Assembly: GCA_963839955.1 (NCBI GenBank)
Contig: CAWIXB010000001.1
Span: 1,887,492-1,951,491, forward strand
Length of the DNA: 64,000 bases
Direction of reading: 5' to 3'
Origin: an uncultured Actinomycetota bacterium
GTDB lineage: Bacteria > Actinomycetota > Actinomycetes > JACCUZ01
Below the pieces are notes generated by a model. That model searched no databases, had not been told where the DNA came from, and saw nothing but the letters and a program-made list of their open reading frames with translations. A program made the translations under genes and the position numbers. Positions within the stretch are counted from its first letter, which is position 1. Every line of letters begins with the position of its first letter. Of the stretch, positions 55,822 through 61,176 are shown one piece after another.

Positions 55822-56663
55822 TCAGCGCGGCTGGTACTCGGTGATCAGGACCGAGATGGTGACCGGCCCGAGACAGGGGCGGGAGGGAGCCGTCGCGCGG
55901 TCCAGGTGGCGTGCGGTTGGGCTCATGTCCAGCAGGTCCTGTGACTGTTGGCCGGTCAAGGGCGCGGAGTACTCGACACGCTCGGTGGCCGCCGCGTCGA
56001 AGAACGGGCTCAGCGCTTGATGCAGCCGCTGTTCCTTCGCCGGGTCGACGGACACCATCTCGGGCACCTGGTCACGAAGCTCGGCGAGGTGCCGGTCCGT
56101 TGGGCGTACGACGATCAAGCGACCTGCCGGCCGGAGAATCCGAAGTAACTCGGCAGGGTTGCGTGGTGCGAACACGTCGAGGACGAGGTCGGCGACCGCG
56201 CTCGCCAGCGGCAGCGGACGAAAGATGTCCCAGGTTGCCGCTGCGGCACGCTCGTGTGCCCGAACCGCTGCGCGCAGCGCGGGCGCGGAGGTGTCCAGGC
56301 CCAGCCCCAGGAATCCGGGCAGGCGGTTGAGCACGCCGGCCAGGTAGTAGCCGGTTCCGCACCCGCATCCACCAGAGCGCCGCGCTCCGGAGCGGTTGCG
56401 GCCGCCCTGTCGGCGACCGCCACACGCACCGGTTCGTAGCAGCCGGTGCTGAGGAACCGGCCGCGTGCCGCGACCATGGCGGCGTCGTCTCCACTGGTGG
56501 GTCGCCTGCCTGCGAGCAGGCCGACGTAGCCCTGGCGGGCGACGTCGAAGGTGTGACGCTGCGGGCACTGAACCGCGCCCTCGCCCGCGTGCAGCCGACC
56601 GCCGCACGTGGGGCAGCGCAGCAGACGCAGGAGATGCTCGCCGAGTGCCGGAGGAAGTGACAC
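55822..56663 (-). pseudogene. rlmA-like 23S rRNA (guanine-N1) methyltransferase interrupted by a -1 frameshift (or sequencing error) near 56365
   Basis: N-terminal Zn-ribbon LRCPTCGGRL...CPQRHTFDVARQGYVGLL in one frame (track ORF 56115..56663). SAM motif GCGTGYY and the remaining methyltransferase domain in the -1 frame (track ORF 55822..56700). The D-x-G-C-G motif is split by one missing nucleotide. Confidence 0.55.
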
Positions 56664-56714
56664 GGGACCGGGATCGTAGCGCCCGTCCAGGCGTCCACAC
56701 CCCCCATCATCTCG

Positions 56715-57551
56715 CTAGCCGGGCGTCGCGTCGCGTTCGCTTCTTTCAGCGACGCTTCGGGCTTGCCCTTCGTGTATGTCGCTCACCCATTCCCAGCCGG
56801 GCTTGGCCGATGGGCCGATCCGCGGGTCGTCCTGACCGCCGCCGTCACGCAGGGCTTGCACGTACGCGCGGTCCTGTTCGATCCGTGCGCGTACCTGATC
56901 AGCTCCGCCGACTGACCCGTGACCCGGGATGACGACATCGACGTCGTCCGCCACGCCCTCCAGCAGCCTCAGCCCTGCGAGGTAGTCCTCGATCGGGTCA
57001 TTGGTGCCGTTGAAGTTGTCGAGCATCGGGATGAAGACATCCGAGAGCATGTCGCCGGCGACGAGAACCCCGCGATCCTCGATCAACAGTGCCGCATGTC
57101 CCGGGGAATGTGCCGGATGCTCGATGATCCGGACTTGAGGACCATCCCAAGGAATCTGTGCGGTTCCGGCGGGCAGACCGGTGATGAGGCCAAACAGGTC
57201 CAGCGGTGTCTCGTCGGCGATCTCTGGCGGTAACCCCTCGGCGACGCGGGCCTCCCAGTCCGCGTTCGACCGCACGTCTCGCATGAAGGCTGCGCAGCGG
57301 GCTGTGCCGTAACGGGGTACTTCGCCGAGCTCGGTGTGCCAGAGCACGTGATCCCAGTCAGGATGCGTCGCGAAGCCTGCCACAACGGGCTGGCCCAACT
57401 CGCGAACGTCGTTCGCGAGGCAGGCCATTTCGGAGCCTTCTATCCCGGGGTCGACGAGCAACACGCCGGCCCGGCCTTGCACGACCGCTGTGTTGTTCGC
57501 GAGTAGCTCGCTCTGGTGGACCAGCACACCTTCCGCGACCTGCGTCAGCAT
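56715..57551 (-). CDS. MBL-fold metallo-hydrolase
   Basis: HxHxDH motif (ATHPDWDHV) and downstream His/Asp ligands. Start at the internal ATG (residue 26 of track ORF 56715..57626). Confidence 0.75.
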   Translation of the reverse strand: MLTQVAEGVLVHQSELLANNTAVVQGRAGVLLVDPGIEGSEMACLANDVRELGQPVVAGFATHPDWDHVLWHTELGEVPRYGTARCAAFMRDVRSNADWEARVAEGLPPEIADETPLDLFGLITGLPAGTAQIPWDGPQVRIIEHPAHSPGHAALLIEDRGVLVAGDMLSDVFIPMLDNFNGTNDPIEDYLAGLRLLEGVADDVDVVIPGHGSVGGADQVRARIEQDRAYVQALRDGGGQDDPRIGPSAKPGWEWVSDIHEGQARSVAERSERDATPG

Positions 57552-57681
57552 GGGGCTCCTTCCGCGTGTGGCTTGCGTCTCGGCCGGCACCGGATCGGCT
57601 CGTGCTCGAGATCGAACCCCTGTCACGGATCCGCGCCCCGAAACCCTGTCAGAAAGGCGTGACGCTCACCACACGAACGAC

Positions 57682-57697
57682 TCGAACATATGTTCTA
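57682..57697. promoter_or_regulatory. LexA-type SOS box (Cheo box) TCGAACATATGTTCTA, perfect GAAC-N4-GTTC palindrome, immediately upstream of the radical SAM gene start
   Basis: Seen directly at 57684-57695 (GAACATATGTTC). Matches the Gram-positive/mycobacterial LexA operator consensus TCGAAC-N4-GTTCGA in 14 of 16 positions. Confidence 0.55.
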
Positions 57698-59251
57698 ATG
57701 GAAGCCGTGCGGTGGGACGAGCTCCGACTGGACGGACCGGCCGACGACGGCGCTGCGGCGGGTCCGGTGCCGCTGCTCCCCCGCGGCTCGGTGACCCGCA
57801 CCTTCGACACGCCGGGGTTCCGCGGCATCACGTTCCACGAGGTCACGGCGCGGTCGGCGCTCAACAAGGTCCCCGAGGCCTCACACATGCCGTTCCGCTG
57901 GACCATCAACCCCTATCGCGGCTGCAGCCATGCGTGTGTCTACTGCCTGAGCGGCGACACCCTCATTCTCATGGGTGACGGCCGGGCCAAGCCGTTGTCC
58001 GCCGTACGAGCGGGAGACGTCGTCTACGGCGCCGAGGTGCGCGGCCGCTACCCGCGCTACGTCCGGACGGACGTCCTCGCGCACTGGGAGACCACCAAGC
58101 CGGCCTACCGCGTCACCCTCGCCGACGGGACACAACTCGTCGCAAGCGGCGACCACCGGTTCCTGACCGAGCGCGGCTGGAAGCACGTCTGCTCCGACCA
58201 CGACGCTCTCGCGACCGACGACTCCTTGTTGGGCTTCGGGGACAGTAGCCCGCCGCCTCTCGGGACGGCGATCAAGAGCACCGCAGCCCTTTTCGTCGTC
58301 TCGGTGGTGCCGCTCGGGATCGAGATGCCGATGTTCGACATCACCACCGGCACCGGTGACTTCATCGCCAACGGCGTGGTGAGCCACAACTGCTTTGCGC
58401 GCAAGACGCACGAGTACCTCGAGCTCGACGCCGGCCACGACTTCGACTCGCAGATCGTCGTCAAGACCAATGTCGGCGAGGTGCTGCGCCGCGAGCTGGC
58501 CCGACCGTCCTGGCAGGGCGAGCACGTCGCGATGGGCACCAACGTGGACTGCTACCAGCGTGCCGAGGGGCGCTACCGGCTGATGCCCGAGATCCTCAGC
58601 GCGCTCTCGGACGCCGCAAACCCGTTCTCCATCCTCACCAAGGGCGCGCTGCTCCTGCGCGACCTCGACCTGCTCGTCGCCGCGGCCGAGCGCACCGATG
58701 TCTCCACCGCGGTCTCGGTCGGCTTCCTCGACGAGGACGTGTGGCGCTCGGTGGAGCCGGGGACGCCGTCGCCCCGGCGCCGGCTCGAGGTGTGCCGGTC
58801 ACTCAACGAGGCGGGCATCCCGTGCGGGGTCCTGCTCGCGCCGGTGCTGCCCTTCCTCGCCGACTCCGACGCCGCGCTCGACGCAGCGGTGGCCGCCGCC
58901 GCCGAGGCCGGCGCGGGCTACGTCTCGCCGATCGCCCTGCACCTACGTCCGGGCGCCCGCGAGTGGTGGCAGGCGTGGCTGCGCCGCGAGCGCCCCGACC
59001 TGCTCCCCCGCTACGCCGACCTCTACGGCACCCGCTCCTACGCGCCCAAGAGCTACCAGCGCGACATCACCGAGCGAGTGCGCGCCGCAGCCGCCCGCCA
59101 CGGCGTCGGCCGCAATTCGGTACGCCGTGGCCGGCTCGTCCCGCAACGGTCACGGTTGCGTGGCGCCGACCCGACCGTCGCGGCCTCACCCGCAGCGGCC
59201 GGACAGGTGAGCCAGGCGGACCGTTCGGCCGCCCAGCTCACCCTGCTCTGA
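57698..59251 (+). CDS. SplB-like radical SAM protein (COG1533 DNA repair photolyase family) whose CxxxCxxC motif is interrupted by a mini-intein
   Basis: Extein sequence WTINPYRGCSHACVY | intein | CFARKTHEYLELD reconstitutes CSHACVYC. ATG at 57698 (residue 45 of track ORF 57566..59251). Confidence 0.8.
   Translation: MEAVRWDELRLDGPADDGAAAGPVPLLPRGSVTRTFDTPGFRGITFHEVTARSALNKVPEASHMPFRWTINPYRGCSHACVYCLSGDTLILMGDGRAKPLSAVRAGDVVYGAEVRGRYPRYVRTDVLAHWETTKPAYRVTLADGTQLVASGDHRFLTERGWKHVCSDHDALATDDSLLGFGDSSPPPLGTAIKSTAALFVVSVVPLGIEMPMFDITTGTGDFIANGVVSHNCFARKTHEYLELDAGHDFDSQIVVKTNVGEVLRRELARPSWQGEHVAMGTNVDCYQRAEGRYRLMPEILSALSDAANPFSILTKGALLLRDLDLLVAAAERTDVSTAVSVGFLDEDVWRSVEPGTPSPRRRLEVCRSLNEAGIPCGVLLAPVLPFLADSDAALDAAVAAAAEAGAGYVSPIALHLRPGAREWWQAWLRRERPDLLPRYADLYGTRSYAPKSYQRDITERVRAAAARHGVGRNSVRRGRLVPQRSRLRGADPTVAASPAAAGQVSQADRSAAQLTLL
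57944..58390 (+). mobile_element. Mini-intein (149 aa, no homing endonuclease domain) inserted at the third Cys of the radical SAM motif
   Basis: Block A CLSGDTLIL. Block B GDHRFLT. Block F/G DFIANGVVSHN followed by the +1 Cys. In frame with the host protein. Confidence 0.75.
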
Positions 59252-59263
59252 TCCCCGCGACGA

Positions 59264-59716
59264 TCAGCCCTCGCCGTCGGCCAGCTTGGCAAAGGCCGCG
59301 AGCACGCTCGGCCAACCCTGCTCGTAGCTCGAGCGGTACTCCTGCGCCTGCTTCGCCCAGGCGTCCCAGCCGTGGTGGACGAGATCCACCCTCGTGCCGT
59401 CGCCCTCGGCGGTGAACGTCACCTCGACGGTCGTGTGCGTGTCCGCGTCACCGCCGGGGTGCCAGGTCATCGCCATCCCGTCGGGCGGGTCCCACCGGGT
59501 GACCGTGCCCCATACGTCCTGCTCCCCCGCCGTCGAGCGCTCCACCAGGCGGTTGTCCTCGAACGCGAGGCCCGCGGTCGACTTCATGTAGACGCCGAAC
59601 TCCTGCAACGGCCACCAGGAGCCGATCTGCTCGGTGAAGACGCGGAACGCGTCCTGTGCGCCTCGCTTGACGTGCACGGTTCGCACGACGGGCGCGACGG
59701 TCTCTGACGTAGTCAT
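59264..59716 (-). CDS. SRPBCC / AHSA1 (activator of Hsp90 ATPase homolog) domain protein
   Basis: 150 aa. Start/RVFTEQIGSWWP pattern typical of the AHSA1/polyketide_cyc2 superfamily. Cotranscribed with an ArsR regulator. Confidence 0.75.
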   Translation of the reverse strand: MTTSETVAPVVRTVHVKRGAQDAFRVFTEQIGSWWPLQEFGVYMKSTAGLAFEDNRLVERSTAGEQDVWGTVTRWDPPDGMAMTWHPGGDADTHTTVEVTFTAEGDGTRVDLVHHGWDAWAKQAQEYRSSYEQGWPSVLAAFAKLADGEG

Positions 59717-60030
59717 GTGCTCTCCCTTTCAGCGAAATCCTTGAATGAAGCGAGTGCCACATCCCAGAAGCCGTCCACGAAGGCCCGCAGCTCGCCGAGC
59801 CCCCCGAGGTCGACCCGATAGAGCCGCCGGGTCCCCTCCCCCCGTCTCGTCACCAACCCTGCCTCGCGCAGCACCTTCAGGTGCTGCGACACCGCCGACT
59901 GCGACACCGGCAGGCGGGCTGCGAGGTCTCCGACCGAGCGTGGCCCGGCGCGGAGTCCCTCGAAGACGGCCCGCCGCGTCGGGTCGCCGAGTGCGGCCAG
60001 AGCGGCATGTGCATTAGCCATGACTAACAT
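59713..60030 (-). CDS. ArsR/SmtB family transcriptional regulator
   Basis: ALGDPTRRAVFEGL...SVGDLAARLPVSQSAVSQHLKVLREAGLV HTH. Confidence 0.8.
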   Translation of the reverse strand: MLVMANAHAALAALGDPTRRAVFEGLRAGPRSVGDLAARLPVSQSAVSQHLKVLREAGLVTRRGEGTRRLYRVDLGGLGELRAFVDGFWDVALASFKDFAEREST

Positions 60031-60105: not shown

Positions 60106-61176
60106 GTGATGCCAGCCGCCGAGTCACCCACCGCTCCCGGACCCGCCGCCACGGAGGACACCGTGGTCCTCCGTTACGCCGACCCGGACAAGCGGATGGC
60201 AGGCGTGCGGTTGCAGCTCGACGTCCCCCTTTCGGGCCAGCGCCTCGACTTCGCCAAGGCCGCGGGTGGCTGGCTGCTACGCCTGGCCCGGCCCCCGGTG
60301 GACCGCCTCGAGTACCTGTTCGAGCTCACCCATGCGGACGGCGGGACGGAGACGACGACCGACCCGGCCAACCCCCTGCGCGCCCCCGGGGCGTTCGGCG
60401 ACAAGTCGGCGCTGGAGCTGCCCGGCTACGTCCGCCCGAGCTGGCTGGAGGGGCCGTCGCCGCCCGGACGCCGCAGAGCCCTACCCGTCCCGGCGCGCGC
60501 GGTGCGCGACGAGGTCGAGGTCACCCTGTGGTCGCCGGACGGCGTCGAGGACGACGAGCCGCTGCCGCTGCTGGTCGCCCACGACGGCCCGGAGTACGAC
60601 GAGCTGTCCGGGCTCACGACGTACCTCTCCGCACTCGTCGCGGCGGGCACGCTGCCCCCGGTGCGCGCGGCGCTGCTCGCGCCTGGGGACCGGGACGAGC
60701 GCTACTCCGCCAACGGCGCCTACACGCGCGCGCTGACCCTCGCTGTGCTGCCCCGGCTGCGGGCCCACCTGGCGACGACGGCCGTGGTCGGCATGGGGGC
60801 CAGCCTCGGTGCGCTCGCACTGCTGCACGCGCAGCGGCGCCACGGTGACGCATTCGACGCGCTGTTCCTGCAGTCAGGCAGTTTCTTCCACCCTCGCTAC
60901 GACGAGCACGAGCGTCGCTTCCCCCACTACGACCGCATCGTGCGCACCGTCGACGGCGTGCTGCGGGCCGGCGGGCACCACTCCCCCGTGCCGGTGGTCC
61001 TGACCTGCGGCGGCATCGAGGAGAACATCGCAAACAACAGGGTGATGGCCCGCGCGCTGGCTGCGCAGGGGTACGACGCGGTGCTGCACGAGGTGCGCGA
61101 CACCCACAACTACGTGGCCTGGCGCGATGCGTTCCACCCGCATCTCACCGGCCTGCTGCGCGAGGTGGCCGCGTGA
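60106..61176 (+). CDS. Putative esterase (enterochelin esterase-like alpha/beta hydrolase, PF00756 type)
   Basis: N-terminal beta-sandwich-like region plus a hydrolase domain with GMGASLG (GxSxG). Confidence 0.65.
   Translation: MMPAAESPTAPGPAATEDTVVLRYADPDKRMAGVRLQLDVPLSGQRLDFAKAAGGWLLRLARPPVDRLEYLFELTHADGGTETTTDPANPLRAPGAFGDKSALELPGYVRPSWLEGPSPPGRRRALPVPARAVRDEVEVTLWSPDGVEDDEPLPLLVAHDGPEYDELSGLTTYLSALVAAGTLPPVRAALLAPGDRDERYSANGAYTRALTLAVLPRLRAHLATTAVVGMGASLGALALLHAQRRHGDAFDALFLQSGSFFHPRYDEHERRFPHYDRIVRTVDGVLRAGGHHSPVPVVLTCGGIEENIANNRVMARALAAQGYDAVLHEVRDTHNYVAWRDAFHPHLTGLLREVAA

What the first reader, a model, noticed from the sequence alone, without database searches (positions are those of the whole stretch)
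57944..58390. Mini-intein splitting the CxxxCxxC motif of an SplB-like radical SAM DNA-repair protein
The host protein carries NPYRGCSHACVY, then CLSGDTLIL (intein block A), then GDHRFLT (block B), then DFIANGVVSHN (blocks F/G), then CFARKTHEYLELD. Removing the 149 residues restores CSHACVYC, so the intein sits exactly at the third iron-sulfur-cluster cysteine of a COG1533 radical SAM protein. The mini-intein lacks a homing-endonuclease domain, suggesting an old, degenerated insertion. Inteins at cluster-ligating cysteines couple protein maturation to splicing. I am not aware of this insertion site being catalogued.
Basis: seen in the sequence. Interest (0 to 1): 0.8.

Follow-up and report, generated by a model that had tools for sequence, protein, structure and literature searches.

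The report
Known mini-intein in radical-SAM cysteine motif
A 149-residue self-splicing protein insert (mini-intein) really does interrupt the iron-sulfur-binding cysteine motif of an SOS-box-preceded radical SAM gene, but this insertion site is already catalogued and common in Actinobacteria, so the finding is correct yet ordinary.

Summary
Window 57944-58390 encodes a 149-aa class-1 mini-intein (Cys1, Ser68-x-x-His71, Asp132, His148-Asn149, Cys+1). It lies between Tyr82 and the third cysteine of the CX3CX2C motif of an Rv2578c-family (COG1533, "SplB-like") radical SAM protein. Removing it gives an extein that matches the intein-less family model end to end. It also aligns without a gap across the junction to 80/80 intein-less genomic homologs. 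An AlphaFold model (pLDDT 95.8) has the HINT fold of solved DnaB and RecA mini-inteins.

The site is not new. NCBIfam has a dedicated model, NF038136 "intein-containing Rv2578c family radical SAM protein"; this protein scores 764 against a cut-off of 700. Novikova et al. 2016 list SplB/COG1533 with 48 inteins in Actinobacteria. In this search, 119 of the 120 best database homologs carry an intein at the same site. Most of those inteins are about 340 aa with a LAGLIDADG endonuclease, and 29 are minis. The window copy lost the endonuclease, but its splicing residues are intact.

Side observations:
- A conserved LexA/SOS box abuts the start codon.
- The protein ends in a clamp-binding-like QLTLL tail.
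- Related inteins occupy the same motif in DUF5131 and B12-binding radical SAM proteins.

Redox- or cluster-gated splicing is plausible but untested.

The parts
57682..57697 (.). LexA/SOS-box-like palindrome TCGAACatatGTTCta, ending 1 nt before ATG 57698
   Evidence: One mismatch to TCGAAC-N4-GTTCGA. GAAC-N4-GT[TA]C is found upstream of 57/80 intein-less homologs, mostly at the same -16 offset. COG1533 splB is reported as LexA-regulated in Actinobacteria (PMC4951493).
57698..57943 (+). N-extein (82 aa, M1..Y82). An alternative start is GTG 57707, corresponding to the MRWD... start of homologs.
   Evidence: The database protein P0001 is identical and uses ATG 57698.
57923..57937 (+). First two cluster cysteines, C76-S-H-A-C80. 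C80 is at position -3 relative to intein Cys1.
   Evidence: C76, C80 and the +1 Cys are invariant in the extein alignments.
57944..58390 (+). 149-aa class-1 mini-intein (HINT domain only, no endonuclease)
   Evidence: AF2 gives pLDDT 95.8, pTM 0.89, all-beta. Foldseek finds the Npu DnaB, Ssp DnaB and Mtu RecA mini-inteins. There is no LAGLIDADG hit.
57944..57982 (+). Block A: C1-LSGDTLILMGDG (Cys1 nucleophile)
   Evidence: Cys1 is present in 119/119 family inteins.
58127..58168 (+). Block B: GTQLVASGDHRFLT (S68-x-x-H71)
   Evidence: His is present in 119/119. The family has Ser, not Thr, in 115/119.
58256..58261 (+). Point (P105|L106) where relatives carry a ~195-aa LAGLIDADG endonuclease domain that is absent here
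   Evidence: Alignment with P0002, whose intein is 345 aa. There is a 250-column insertion after residue 105 in the family alignment. Relatives hit PF14528.
58325..58372 (+). Block F: MPMFDITTGTGDFIAN (D132)
   Evidence: D132 and D139 are present in 119/119.
58373..58390 (+). Block G: GVVSHN (H148, N149)
   Evidence: S147, H148 and N149 are present in 119/119.
58391..58393 (+). +1 Cys. It is the C-extein nucleophile and, after splicing, the third Cys of CX3CX2C.
   Evidence: Every one of 119 homologs has ...HN|C[FY]AR.
58391..59251 (+). C-extein (286 aa plus stop): the remainder of the radical SAM barrel and a disordered tail
   Evidence: NF038135 scores 511 bits on the spliced protein. The AF2 extein model has pLDDT above 90 over most of residues 110-330.
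59234..59248 (+). C-terminal QLTLL pentapeptide (beta-clamp-binding-like motif)
   Evidence: Q[LP]xL[LWFM] lies at the extreme C-terminus in 85/119 intein-containing and 58/77 intein-less homologs. The clamp-motif interpretation comes from memory and was not tested.

Best explanation
Window 57944-58390 is a canonical class-1 mini-intein. It sits in an Rv2578c-family (COG1533) radical SAM protein whose gene is preceded by an SOS box, between Tyr82 and the third cysteine of the CX3CX2C [4Fe-4S]-binding motif.

Inferred mechanism, from the standard class-1 pathway:
1. The 56.1-kDa precursor undergoes an N-S acyl shift at Cys1.
2. Trans-thioesterification transfers the N-extein to the +1 Cys.
3. 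Asn149 cyclises, which releases the 15.9-kDa intein.
4. An S-N shift leaves a 40.2-kDa enzyme in which the +1 Cys becomes the third cluster ligand.

The enzyme therefore cannot bind its catalytic cluster in the native geometry until it has spliced.

The intein is one allele of a widespread, already catalogued actinobacterial intein. The usual form is about 340 aa and carries a LAGLIDADG homing endonuclease. This lineage deleted the endonuclease (about 195 aa after residue 105) and kept a fully conserved splicing domain.

Shown here: the anatomy, homology, fold, collinearity of the extein, and distribution. Inferred: actual splicing, cluster binding, and the DNA-repair function.
For: - Family models: NF038136 'intein-containing Rv2578c family radical SAM protein' scores 764.1 bits (cut-off 700). 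The spliced extein scores 511.1 bits on NF038135 (cut-off 430), matching in one stretch over profile positions 2-316 of 317.
- Same site in homologs: 119 of the 120 best homologs have an intein at the identical site. Lengths are bimodal, 149-178 and 272-362 aa.
- Catalytic residues C1, H71, D132, H148, N149 and C+1 are invariant in 119/119.
- Collinearity: 80/80 intein-less loci (Nonomuraea, Microbispora, Streptomyces and others) align gap-free across CxHxCxYCFAR.
- Fold: the AF2 intein model has pLDDT 95.8. The best PDB matches are solved mini-inteins, with 4o1r at TM 0.78/0.82. Sequence-level hits to 4o1r, 2imz and 1mi8 agree.
- Endonuclease loss: the alignment to P0002 shows two LAGLIDADG-like motifs missing here. 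Many minis have a full-length nearest neighbour at 83-91% identity, which indicates recurrent endonuclease loss.
- Long residence: intein GC3 is 0.906 against 0.89-0.92 for the exteins. Intein identity to the nearest relative is 72%, against 75% for the extein.
- Prior cataloguing: PMC4760082, Table 1.
Against: - No experiment shows that this particular copy splices.
- Generic intein HMMs are partly sub-threshold: PF14890 scores 26.5 against 35.8, and TIGR01443 scores 13.5 against 15.6.
- Block B has Ser instead of the canonical Thr, although this is the family norm.
- This copy has two lineage-specific features. One is a 6-aa deletion after block B. The other is an extra Cys83 where relatives mostly have Thr. 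Their effect on splicing is unknown.
- The extein AF2 model is unconfident exactly at the cluster loop and junction (residues 77-96, pLDDT below 50).
Confidence: 0.93

Rival explanations
1. Conditional splicing. This extends the main explanation and is not exclusive of it. In the precursor, N-extein Cys76 and Cys80 together with intein Cys1 form a look-alike CX3CX2C. Cys80 lies at position -3 from Cys1. A Cys(-3)-Cys1 disulfide, or metal/cluster ligation of Cys1, would block the first splicing step. An oxygen-sensitive enzyme whose gene carries an SOS box would then mature only under reducing conditions.
For: The geometry C80-V-Y-C1 is read directly from the sequence. There is a precedent: the Pyrococcus abyssi MoaA intein has a native Cys-3/Cys1 disulfide that controls splicing of an oxygen-labile enzyme (reviews PMC3922620 and PMC10663303, citing Callahan 2011). 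MoaA being a radical SAM enzyme is from memory, not from those reviews. The SOS box is conserved upstream of the family.
Against: It is entirely untested for this family. Cys-3 is dictated by the host motif, so its presence needs no regulatory explanation. Most family members are intein-less (80 of the 80 best genomic loci), so the intein is dispensable for regulation. I could not verify that the MoaA site is the equivalent motif position, because the primary paper is not held.
Confidence: 0.25
2. Splicing-dead relic. The insert is a decayed intein that no longer excises, so the host gene is a pseudogene or makes an inactive protein.
For: The endonuclease is gone. At 149 aa this copy ties for the shortest among the 119 Rv2578c-family inteins compared, and it has an extra 6-aa deletion after block B. 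Generic intein HMM scores are weak.
Against: All catalytic residues are retained and are invariant family-wide. The model is a confident, compact HINT fold with no low-confidence segment. The reading frame is open through 517 codons, and the extein scores above the curated cut-off. The splicing domain is conserved about as well as the host.
Confidence: 0.04
3. The insert is a bacterial intein-like (BIL) or other Hint autoprocessing domain that cleaves rather than ligates. In that case it would not be a true intein.
For: Foldseek also finds BIL domains (6y75, 2lwy) and hedgehog Hint (1at0) with TM around 0.7-0.79.
Against: It has the terminal His-Asn followed by a +1 Cys. It interrupts an invariant catalytic motif. 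It is absent from otherwise collinear orthologs. Its sister alleles carry LAGLIDADG homing endonucleases. All of these define inteins, not BILs. The top fold and sequence matches are true inteins.
Confidence: 0.01

Closest known systems
Intein-containing Rv2578c family radical SAM proteins (NCBIfam NF038136; 'SplB' COG1533 inteins of Novikova et al. 2016)
   Same: Same host family, same insertion point (…C-x-Y | C…SHN | CFAR…) and same intein lineage, with 58-72% identity over the splicing domain. The window protein passes the model's curated cut-off.
   Different: The typical member has a ~340-aa intein with a LAGLIDADG endonuclease (70 of 119 fall in the 340-349 aa bin). The window copy is a 149-aa mini, one of 29 minis among the 119 and tied for shortest there.
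Pyrococcus abyssi MoaA intein (Callahan et al. 2011, as summarised in PMC3922620 and PMC10663303)
   Same: An intein in an oxygen-labile enzyme, with an N-extein Cys at -3 and a catalytic Cys1. The disulfide between them gates splicing. The window has the same Cys(-3)-x-x-Cys1 arrangement. That MoaA is a radical SAM enzyme is from memory.
   Different: It is archaeal, and MoaA is a different host family. Whether the MoaA site is the same motif cysteine could not be checked. Redox control is untested for the Rv2578c family.
Solved mini-inteins: Npu DnaB (4o1r), Ssp DnaB (1mi8, 6frh), Mtu RecA splicing domain (2imz, 3ifj)
   Same: HINT fold, length of about 140-160 aa, Cys1 and terminal HN, and no endonuclease. 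TM scores are 0.72-0.82. Sequence E-values reach 2.4e-5.
   Different: Only 20-26% identity. The hosts are different (replicative helicase, recombinase). Several of the solved minis are engineered deletions according to their PDB titles; this one is a natural mini.
Spore photoproduct lyase SplB (TIGR04070, PDB 4fhc/4k9r), as a comparison for the host
   Same: Radical SAM barrel with an N-terminal CX3CX2C motif. It is the best solved fold match to the spliced extein, with TM 0.55-0.59. Both carry the COG1533 label.
   Different: 14% identity. The extein scores 14 bits against a cut-off of 400 on the SPL model. The substrate is unknown. The host belongs to the Rv2578c family, not to the SPL equivalog.
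Related inteins found here in DUF5131 (PF07505) and B12-binding class-B radical SAM proteins
   Same: The same intein clade, with blocks …DITTGT.DFIANGVVSHN. Identity to the window intein is 44-60% (DUF5131 hosts) and 42-46% (class B hosts). All are inserted at a cysteine of the host's CX3CX2C motif.
   Different: The hosts are non-orthologous; only about 20 aa around the motif are alignable. In one class-B host the +1 Cys is the second cysteine of the motif, not the third.

Membership tests
Intein (class 1) | N-terminal nucleophile (Cys/Ser1) | tested here: met
   Cys1 is at 57944-57946 and is present in 119/119 homologous inteins.
Intein (class 1) | Block B TxxH with a conserved His | tested here: met
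   S68-G-D-H71. His is present in 119/119. Ser replaces Thr in 115/119 of this family.
Intein (class 1) | Block F Asp and block G penultimate His plus terminal Asn | tested here: met
   D132, H148 and N149 are all present in 119/119.
Intein (class 1) | +1 Cys/Ser/Thr on the C-extein | tested here: met
   Cys at 58391-58393. The junction HN|C[FY]AR is seen in all 119 homologs.
Intein (class 1) | HINT fold | tested here: met
   AF2 pLDDT 95.8. Foldseek matches 4o1r at E 3.7e-10, TM 0.78/0.82, and 60 PDB matches at E <= 0.001; the top 50 listed are inteins or related Hint-fold (BIL, hedgehog) domains.
Intein (class 1) | Host orthologs without the insert are collinear across the junction | tested here: met
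   80/80 genomic loci have no gap in residues 68-98. NF038135 matches in a single stretch.
Intein (class 1) | Generic intein HMMs reach their curated cut-offs | tested here: inconclusive
   On the excised segment, TIGR01445 scores 27.1 against a cut-off of 24.5 (pass). TIGR01443 scores 13.5 against 15.6 (fail), and PF14890 scores 26.5 against 35.8 (fail).
Intein (class 1) | Demonstrated protein splicing (ligated exteins plus free intein) | not testable with these tools
   This needs expression and mass analysis. The predicted sizes are 56.1 kDa going to 40.2 + 15.9 kDa.
Intein-containing Rv2578c family radical SAM protein (NF038136) | Whole-protein score at or above the curated cut-off of 700 bits | tested here: met
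   764.1 bits, E 1.1e-229. Roughly profile positions 163-291 (the endonuclease region) are unmatched.
Rv2578c family radical SAM protein (NF038135) | Score at or above 430 bits, and CX3CX2C present | tested here: met
   The spliced extein scores 511.1 bits. C76, C80 and C83 (extein numbering) are invariant.
Spore photoproduct lyase (TIGR04070 / PF20903) | Equivalog score at or above 400 bits (Pfam SPL at or above 27) | tested here: not met
   14.2 bits on TIGR04070 and 13.2 bits on PF20903. There is only distant fold similarity: TM 0.55-0.59, 14% identity.
Bifunctional (homing-endonuclease-containing) intein | LAGLIDADG/HNH endonuclease domain between blocks B and F | tested here: not met
   There is no PF14528 hit. 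The 149-aa model is a single compact domain. Relatives do have PF14528.
LexA (SOS) regulon member | Actinobacterial SOS box TCGAAC-N4-GTTCGA in the promoter region | tested here: met
   57682-57697 matches with one mismatch. The box is conserved in 57/80 homologous loci. LexA binding itself is not testable here.

The most novel reading that the evidence does not exclude
The window intein belongs to a single intein clade that has colonised the CX3CX2C cluster-binding motif of several non-orthologous radical-SAM families: Rv2578c/COG1533, a divergent PA0069-like relative, DUF5131, and B12-binding class B. This would make the motif an intein 'hot spot' comparable to the ATPase P-loop. In these precursors the intein Cys1, together with the two upstream motif cysteines, could act as a built-in redox or Fe-S sensor. 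That sensor would delay maturation of oxygen-sensitive enzymes, here one with an SOS box. The cross-family distribution is shown here. The sensing role is speculation. I found no paper in the held library that describes either.
Probability: 0.25. Interest if true: 0.55.

Novelty: already known. Interest (0 to 1): 0.2.

Why it matters
As submitted, the finding adds one more mini-intein allele to a known and curated intein site. NCBIfam NF038136, a model NCBI uses to name proteins in its genome annotation, matches it above its cut-off.

The remaining value is as a lead. The Rv2578c/COG1533 intein is tabulated in the literature (48 copies in 2015), but I found no experimental study of it in the held library. 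It splits the catalytic Fe-S motif of a protein family reported as LexA-regulated in several phyla, whose substrate is still unknown.

If splicing proves to be redox- or cluster-gated, it would be a bacterial counterpart of the archaeal MoaA redox trap. If the motif-hopping clade holds up, it would extend the idea that inteins cluster at cofactor-binding motifs from P-loops to radical-SAM motifs.

Tried and rejected
- Organism identification failed. The look-up of encoding contigs found no record for P0001. The listing of cluster members gave no name or accession, only NCBI/ENA as sources and a longest contig of 3.75 Mb. The single genome-contig scan ranked only intein-less loci, so the window's own genome was not returned.
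- Several papers and files are not held: Callahan 2011 (PMC3087850), Callahan 2013 (PMC3718494), Topilina 2015 (PMC4547236) and the Novikova supplementary tables. I therefore could not verify the exact MoaA insertion site or the published list of SplB inteins.
- Searches for 'SplB intein', 'radical SAM intein', and intein together with DUF5131 or CX3CX2C found nothing relevant.
- Generic Pfam intein models are sub-threshold. Taken alone they would have been inconclusive.
- The extein AF2 model is unconfident at residues 77-96, so it says nothing about the junction geometry.
- There is no solved structure of the host family; the best PDB sequence hit is SPL at E 0.04.
- The sigma-70 promoter and terminator scan around the gene, Rfam and tRNA scans of the window all found nothing.
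- I considered and rejected a BIL domain, a dead relic, and recent horizontal acquisition. Recent acquisition is unlikely because the intein's GC3 equals that of the exteins.
Full report
**1. Observation**

ORF 57566..59251 (+) is listed. Its probable start is ATG 57698, giving 517 aa, and this is identical to database protein P0001. The ORF reads ...NPYRGCSHACVY | CLSGDTLILMGDG ... VASGDHRFLT ... MFDITTGTGDFIANGVVSHN | CFARKTHEYLELD. The insert is exactly 57944..58390 (447 nt, 149 aa), and the following TGC at 58391-58393 is the +1 Cys. Deleting it gives CSHACVYCFAR, an intact CX3CX2C motif.

**2. Is it an intein?**

- NCBIfam matches. The whole protein matches NF038136, 'intein-containing Rv2578c family radical SAM protein', at 764.1 bits (curated cut-off 700, E 1.1e-229). 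The excised segment alone matches that model at E 3.6e-53. It also passes TIGR01445 intein_Nterm (27.1 against 24.5). TIGR01443 falls just short (13.5 against 15.6).
- Pfam matches. The generic models are sub-threshold; PF14890 scores 26.5 against 35.8.
- Solved structures by sequence. Residues 2-149 align with the Npu DnaB mini-intein 4o1r (E 2.4e-5). The Mtu RecA and Ssp DnaB mini-inteins follow.
- Fold. An AlphaFold2 model built on 24 mini-intein sequences is very confident (pLDDT 95.8, pTM 0.89, all-beta, no weak segment). Foldseek places it among solved inteins: 4o1r at E 3.7e-10 and TM 0.78/0.82, then Ssp DnaB, gp41-1 and Mtu RecA.
- Catalytic residues. In an alignment of 119 homologous inteins, Cys1, His71 (block B), Asp132 (block F), His148 and Asn149 are invariant, and the +1 Cys follows in all 119 junctions. 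The block B 'Thr' position is Ser in 115/119, so Ser68 is the family norm.

This is a class-1 intein by every sequence and fold criterion. Only splicing itself remains untested.

**3. Seamless junction**

The spliced 368-aa extein matches the intein-less family model NF038135 (Rv2578c family radical SAM protein) at 511.1 bits (cut-off 430). The match is a single stretch covering profile positions 2-316 of 317.

A genome scan with an extein alignment returned 80 loci from Nonomuraea, Microbispora, Sphaerisporangium, Actinomadura, Streptomyces, Micromonospora and MAGs. These encode uninterrupted homologs at 58-70% identity. All 80 align to extein residues 68-98 without a gap, reading CxHxCxYCFAR.

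**4. Already known**

- The existence of NF038136 shows that NCBI curators modelled exactly this intein-interrupted family.
- Database relatives are already named 'intein-containing Rv2578c family radical SAM protein', for example in Actinomadura barringtoniae, A. miaoliensis and Streptosporangiaceae MAGs.
- Novikova et al. [quoted passage not shown]
- Of the 120 best homologs, 119 carry an intein at the identical site.

The statement that the site is uncatalogued is wrong. I found no paper in the held library that studies this intein experimentally or comments on its position in the Fe-S motif.

**5. Mini-intein origin**

Intein lengths in the family are bimodal. There are 29 minis of 149-178 aa and 90 longer ones of 272-362 aa. 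Seventy of the longer ones fall in the 340-349 aa bin, and many of them hit LAGLIDADG_3 (PF14528).

Aligned to its nearest relative P0002 (345-aa intein), the window copy lacks about 195 residues after Pro105. The missing stretch includes two LAGLIDADG-like motifs (YLTGMIRGDA and LGFLAGIFDAEGS). It also lacks 6 residues after block B.

Many minis have a full-length intein as nearest neighbour at 83-91% identity: P0024/P0026, P0039/P0079 and P0053/P0113. The endonuclease has therefore been lost repeatedly, which is the expected late stage of the homing cycle.

'Degenerated' is true only of the endonuclease. The window's splicing domain is 72% identical to P0002, while the exteins are 75% identical. 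Intein GC3 (0.906) matches that of the exteins (0.89-0.92). The element is a long-resident, vertically inherited intein under purifying selection.

**6. The host**

'SplB-like' holds only at the COG level.
- The extein scores 14 bits on the spore-photoproduct-lyase equivalog TIGR04070, whose cut-off is 400.
- Its best PDB sequence match is SPL at E 0.04.
- The AF2 extein model (pLDDT 76.9) has SPL as its best fold match, but with TM 0.55-0.59 and 14% identity. The model is confident in the barrel and unconfident in residues 77-96 around the cluster loop.

The substrate is unknown.

A near-perfect actinobacterial SOS box (TCGAACatatGTTCta, 57682-57697) abuts the start codon. GAAC-N4-GT[TA]C is found upstream of 57/80 homologs, mostly at the same offset. 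Erill and co-workers note that COG1533 splB genes are LexA-regulated in Actinobacteria and several other phyla (PMC4951493). This supports a DNA-damage role without defining it.

**7. Mechanism**

Inferred from the anatomy, the pathway is standard class-1 splicing:
1. Cys1 undergoes an N-S acyl shift.
2. Trans-thioesterification passes the N-extein to the +1 Cys.
3. Asn149 cyclises.
4. An S-N shift completes the ligation.

This converts a 56.1-kDa precursor into a 40.2-kDa enzyme and a 15.9-kDa intein. The +1 Cys is both the splicing nucleophile and the future third cluster ligand. Native cluster assembly must therefore follow splicing.

One extension is plausible but untested. In the precursor, C76-x3-C80-x2-Cys1 mimics the motif, and Cys80 sits at position -3. 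This is the geometry of the Cys-3/Cys1 disulfide 'redox trap' reported for the P. abyssi MoaA intein (reviews PMC3922620 and PMC10663303). I could not read the primary paper. I give this extension about 25%.

**8. Beyond the finding**

A profile of the mini-inteins was searched against 1.84 billion representative proteins. It gave 6028 hits at E <= 1e-3 and 198 at E <= 1e-30. Most of the top hits are Rv2578c-type.

Clearly related inteins, with the same …DITTGT.DFIANGVVSHN terminus, also sit at a motif cysteine in other hosts.

| Host | Proteins | Junction | Identity to window intein |
|---|---|---|---|
| DUF5131/PF07505 | P0149, P0160, P0166, P0186, P0245 | …NPVTGCxHxCPY\|C…HN\|CYARD | 44-60% (four compared; P0160 not aligned) |
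| B12-binding class-B radical SAM | P0208, P0214 | third Cys in P0208, second Cys in P0214 | 42-46% |
| Divergent PA0069-like protein | P0247 | CTHGCPY\|C…HN\|CYVP | not computed |

The exteins of these proteins share only about 20 residues around the motif with the window protein. This points to one intein clade that has moved between the CX3CX2C motifs of different radical-SAM families. NCBIfam has no dedicated models for these other hosts, and I found no paper describing this.

**9. Verdict**

The novelty claim is refuted: this is an already known, curated intein site, and this copy is one of its endonuclease-less alleles. Interest in the finding as stated is low. The conditional-splicing idea and the cross-family intein clade are the only parts worth following up.

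Noticed in passing
window 57682-57697: An actinobacterial LexA/SOS box, TCGAACATATGTTCTA, ends 1 nt before ATG 57698. This leaves no room for a Shine-Dalgarno sequence, so the mRNA is either leaderless or the true start is GTG 57707, matching the MRWD... start of homologs. The box is conserved at the same offset in 57/80 homologous loci.
   Followed up: partly
window 59234-59248: The host protein ends in QLTLL after a disordered tail. A Q[LP]xL[LWFM] pentapeptide lies at the extreme C-terminus in 85/119 intein-containing and 58/77 intein-less homologs. It resembles a beta-sliding-clamp-binding motif; that resemblance is from memory and was not tested.
   Followed up: partly
proteins P0149, P0160, P0166, P0186, P0245, P0208, P0214, P0247: Inteins of the same clade (42-60% identity to the window intein for the six aligned) are inserted at a cysteine of the CX3CX2C motif in non-orthologous hosts: DUF5131 (one with a ParB_N fusion), B12-binding class-B radical SAM proteins, and a divergent PA0069-like protein. 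The exteins share only about 20 aa around the motif. This suggests motif-directed host hopping.
   Followed up: partly
window 55822-56663, minus strand (shift near 56355-56369): An RlmA-like methyltransferase appears to be frameshifted. The Zn-ribbon N-terminus (PF21302) lies in ORF 56115..56663, and the SAM-binding motif GCGTGYYLAG continues in another frame in ORF 55822..56700. This is either a pseudogene or a 1-nt sequencing error in a G run.
   Followed up: partly
window 58190-58192 (intein residue Cys83): This copy has a lineage-specific extra cysteine in the loop after block B, where 93/119 relatives have Thr. It also has a 6-aa deletion there. Both could affect splicing or redox behaviour.
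   Followed up: no
window 56715-57626 (-), 59264-60030 (-), 60106-61176 (+): The neighbouring genes are a metallo-beta-lactamase-fold hydrolase (divergent from the rSAM gene), an ArsR-family regulator with an AHSA1/SRPBCC protein, and a putative esterase. None has an evident functional link to the intein host.
   Followed up: no
spliced extein; DUF5131 hosts P0149, P0166, P0186, P0245: The spliced extein gives a sub-threshold hit to TIGR04470 'radical SAM mobile pair protein B'. The DUF5131 hosts of the related inteins give sub-threshold hits to TIGR04471 'mobile pair protein A'. The two intein-bearing host families therefore resemble the two partners of a described mobile gene pair.
   Followed up: no
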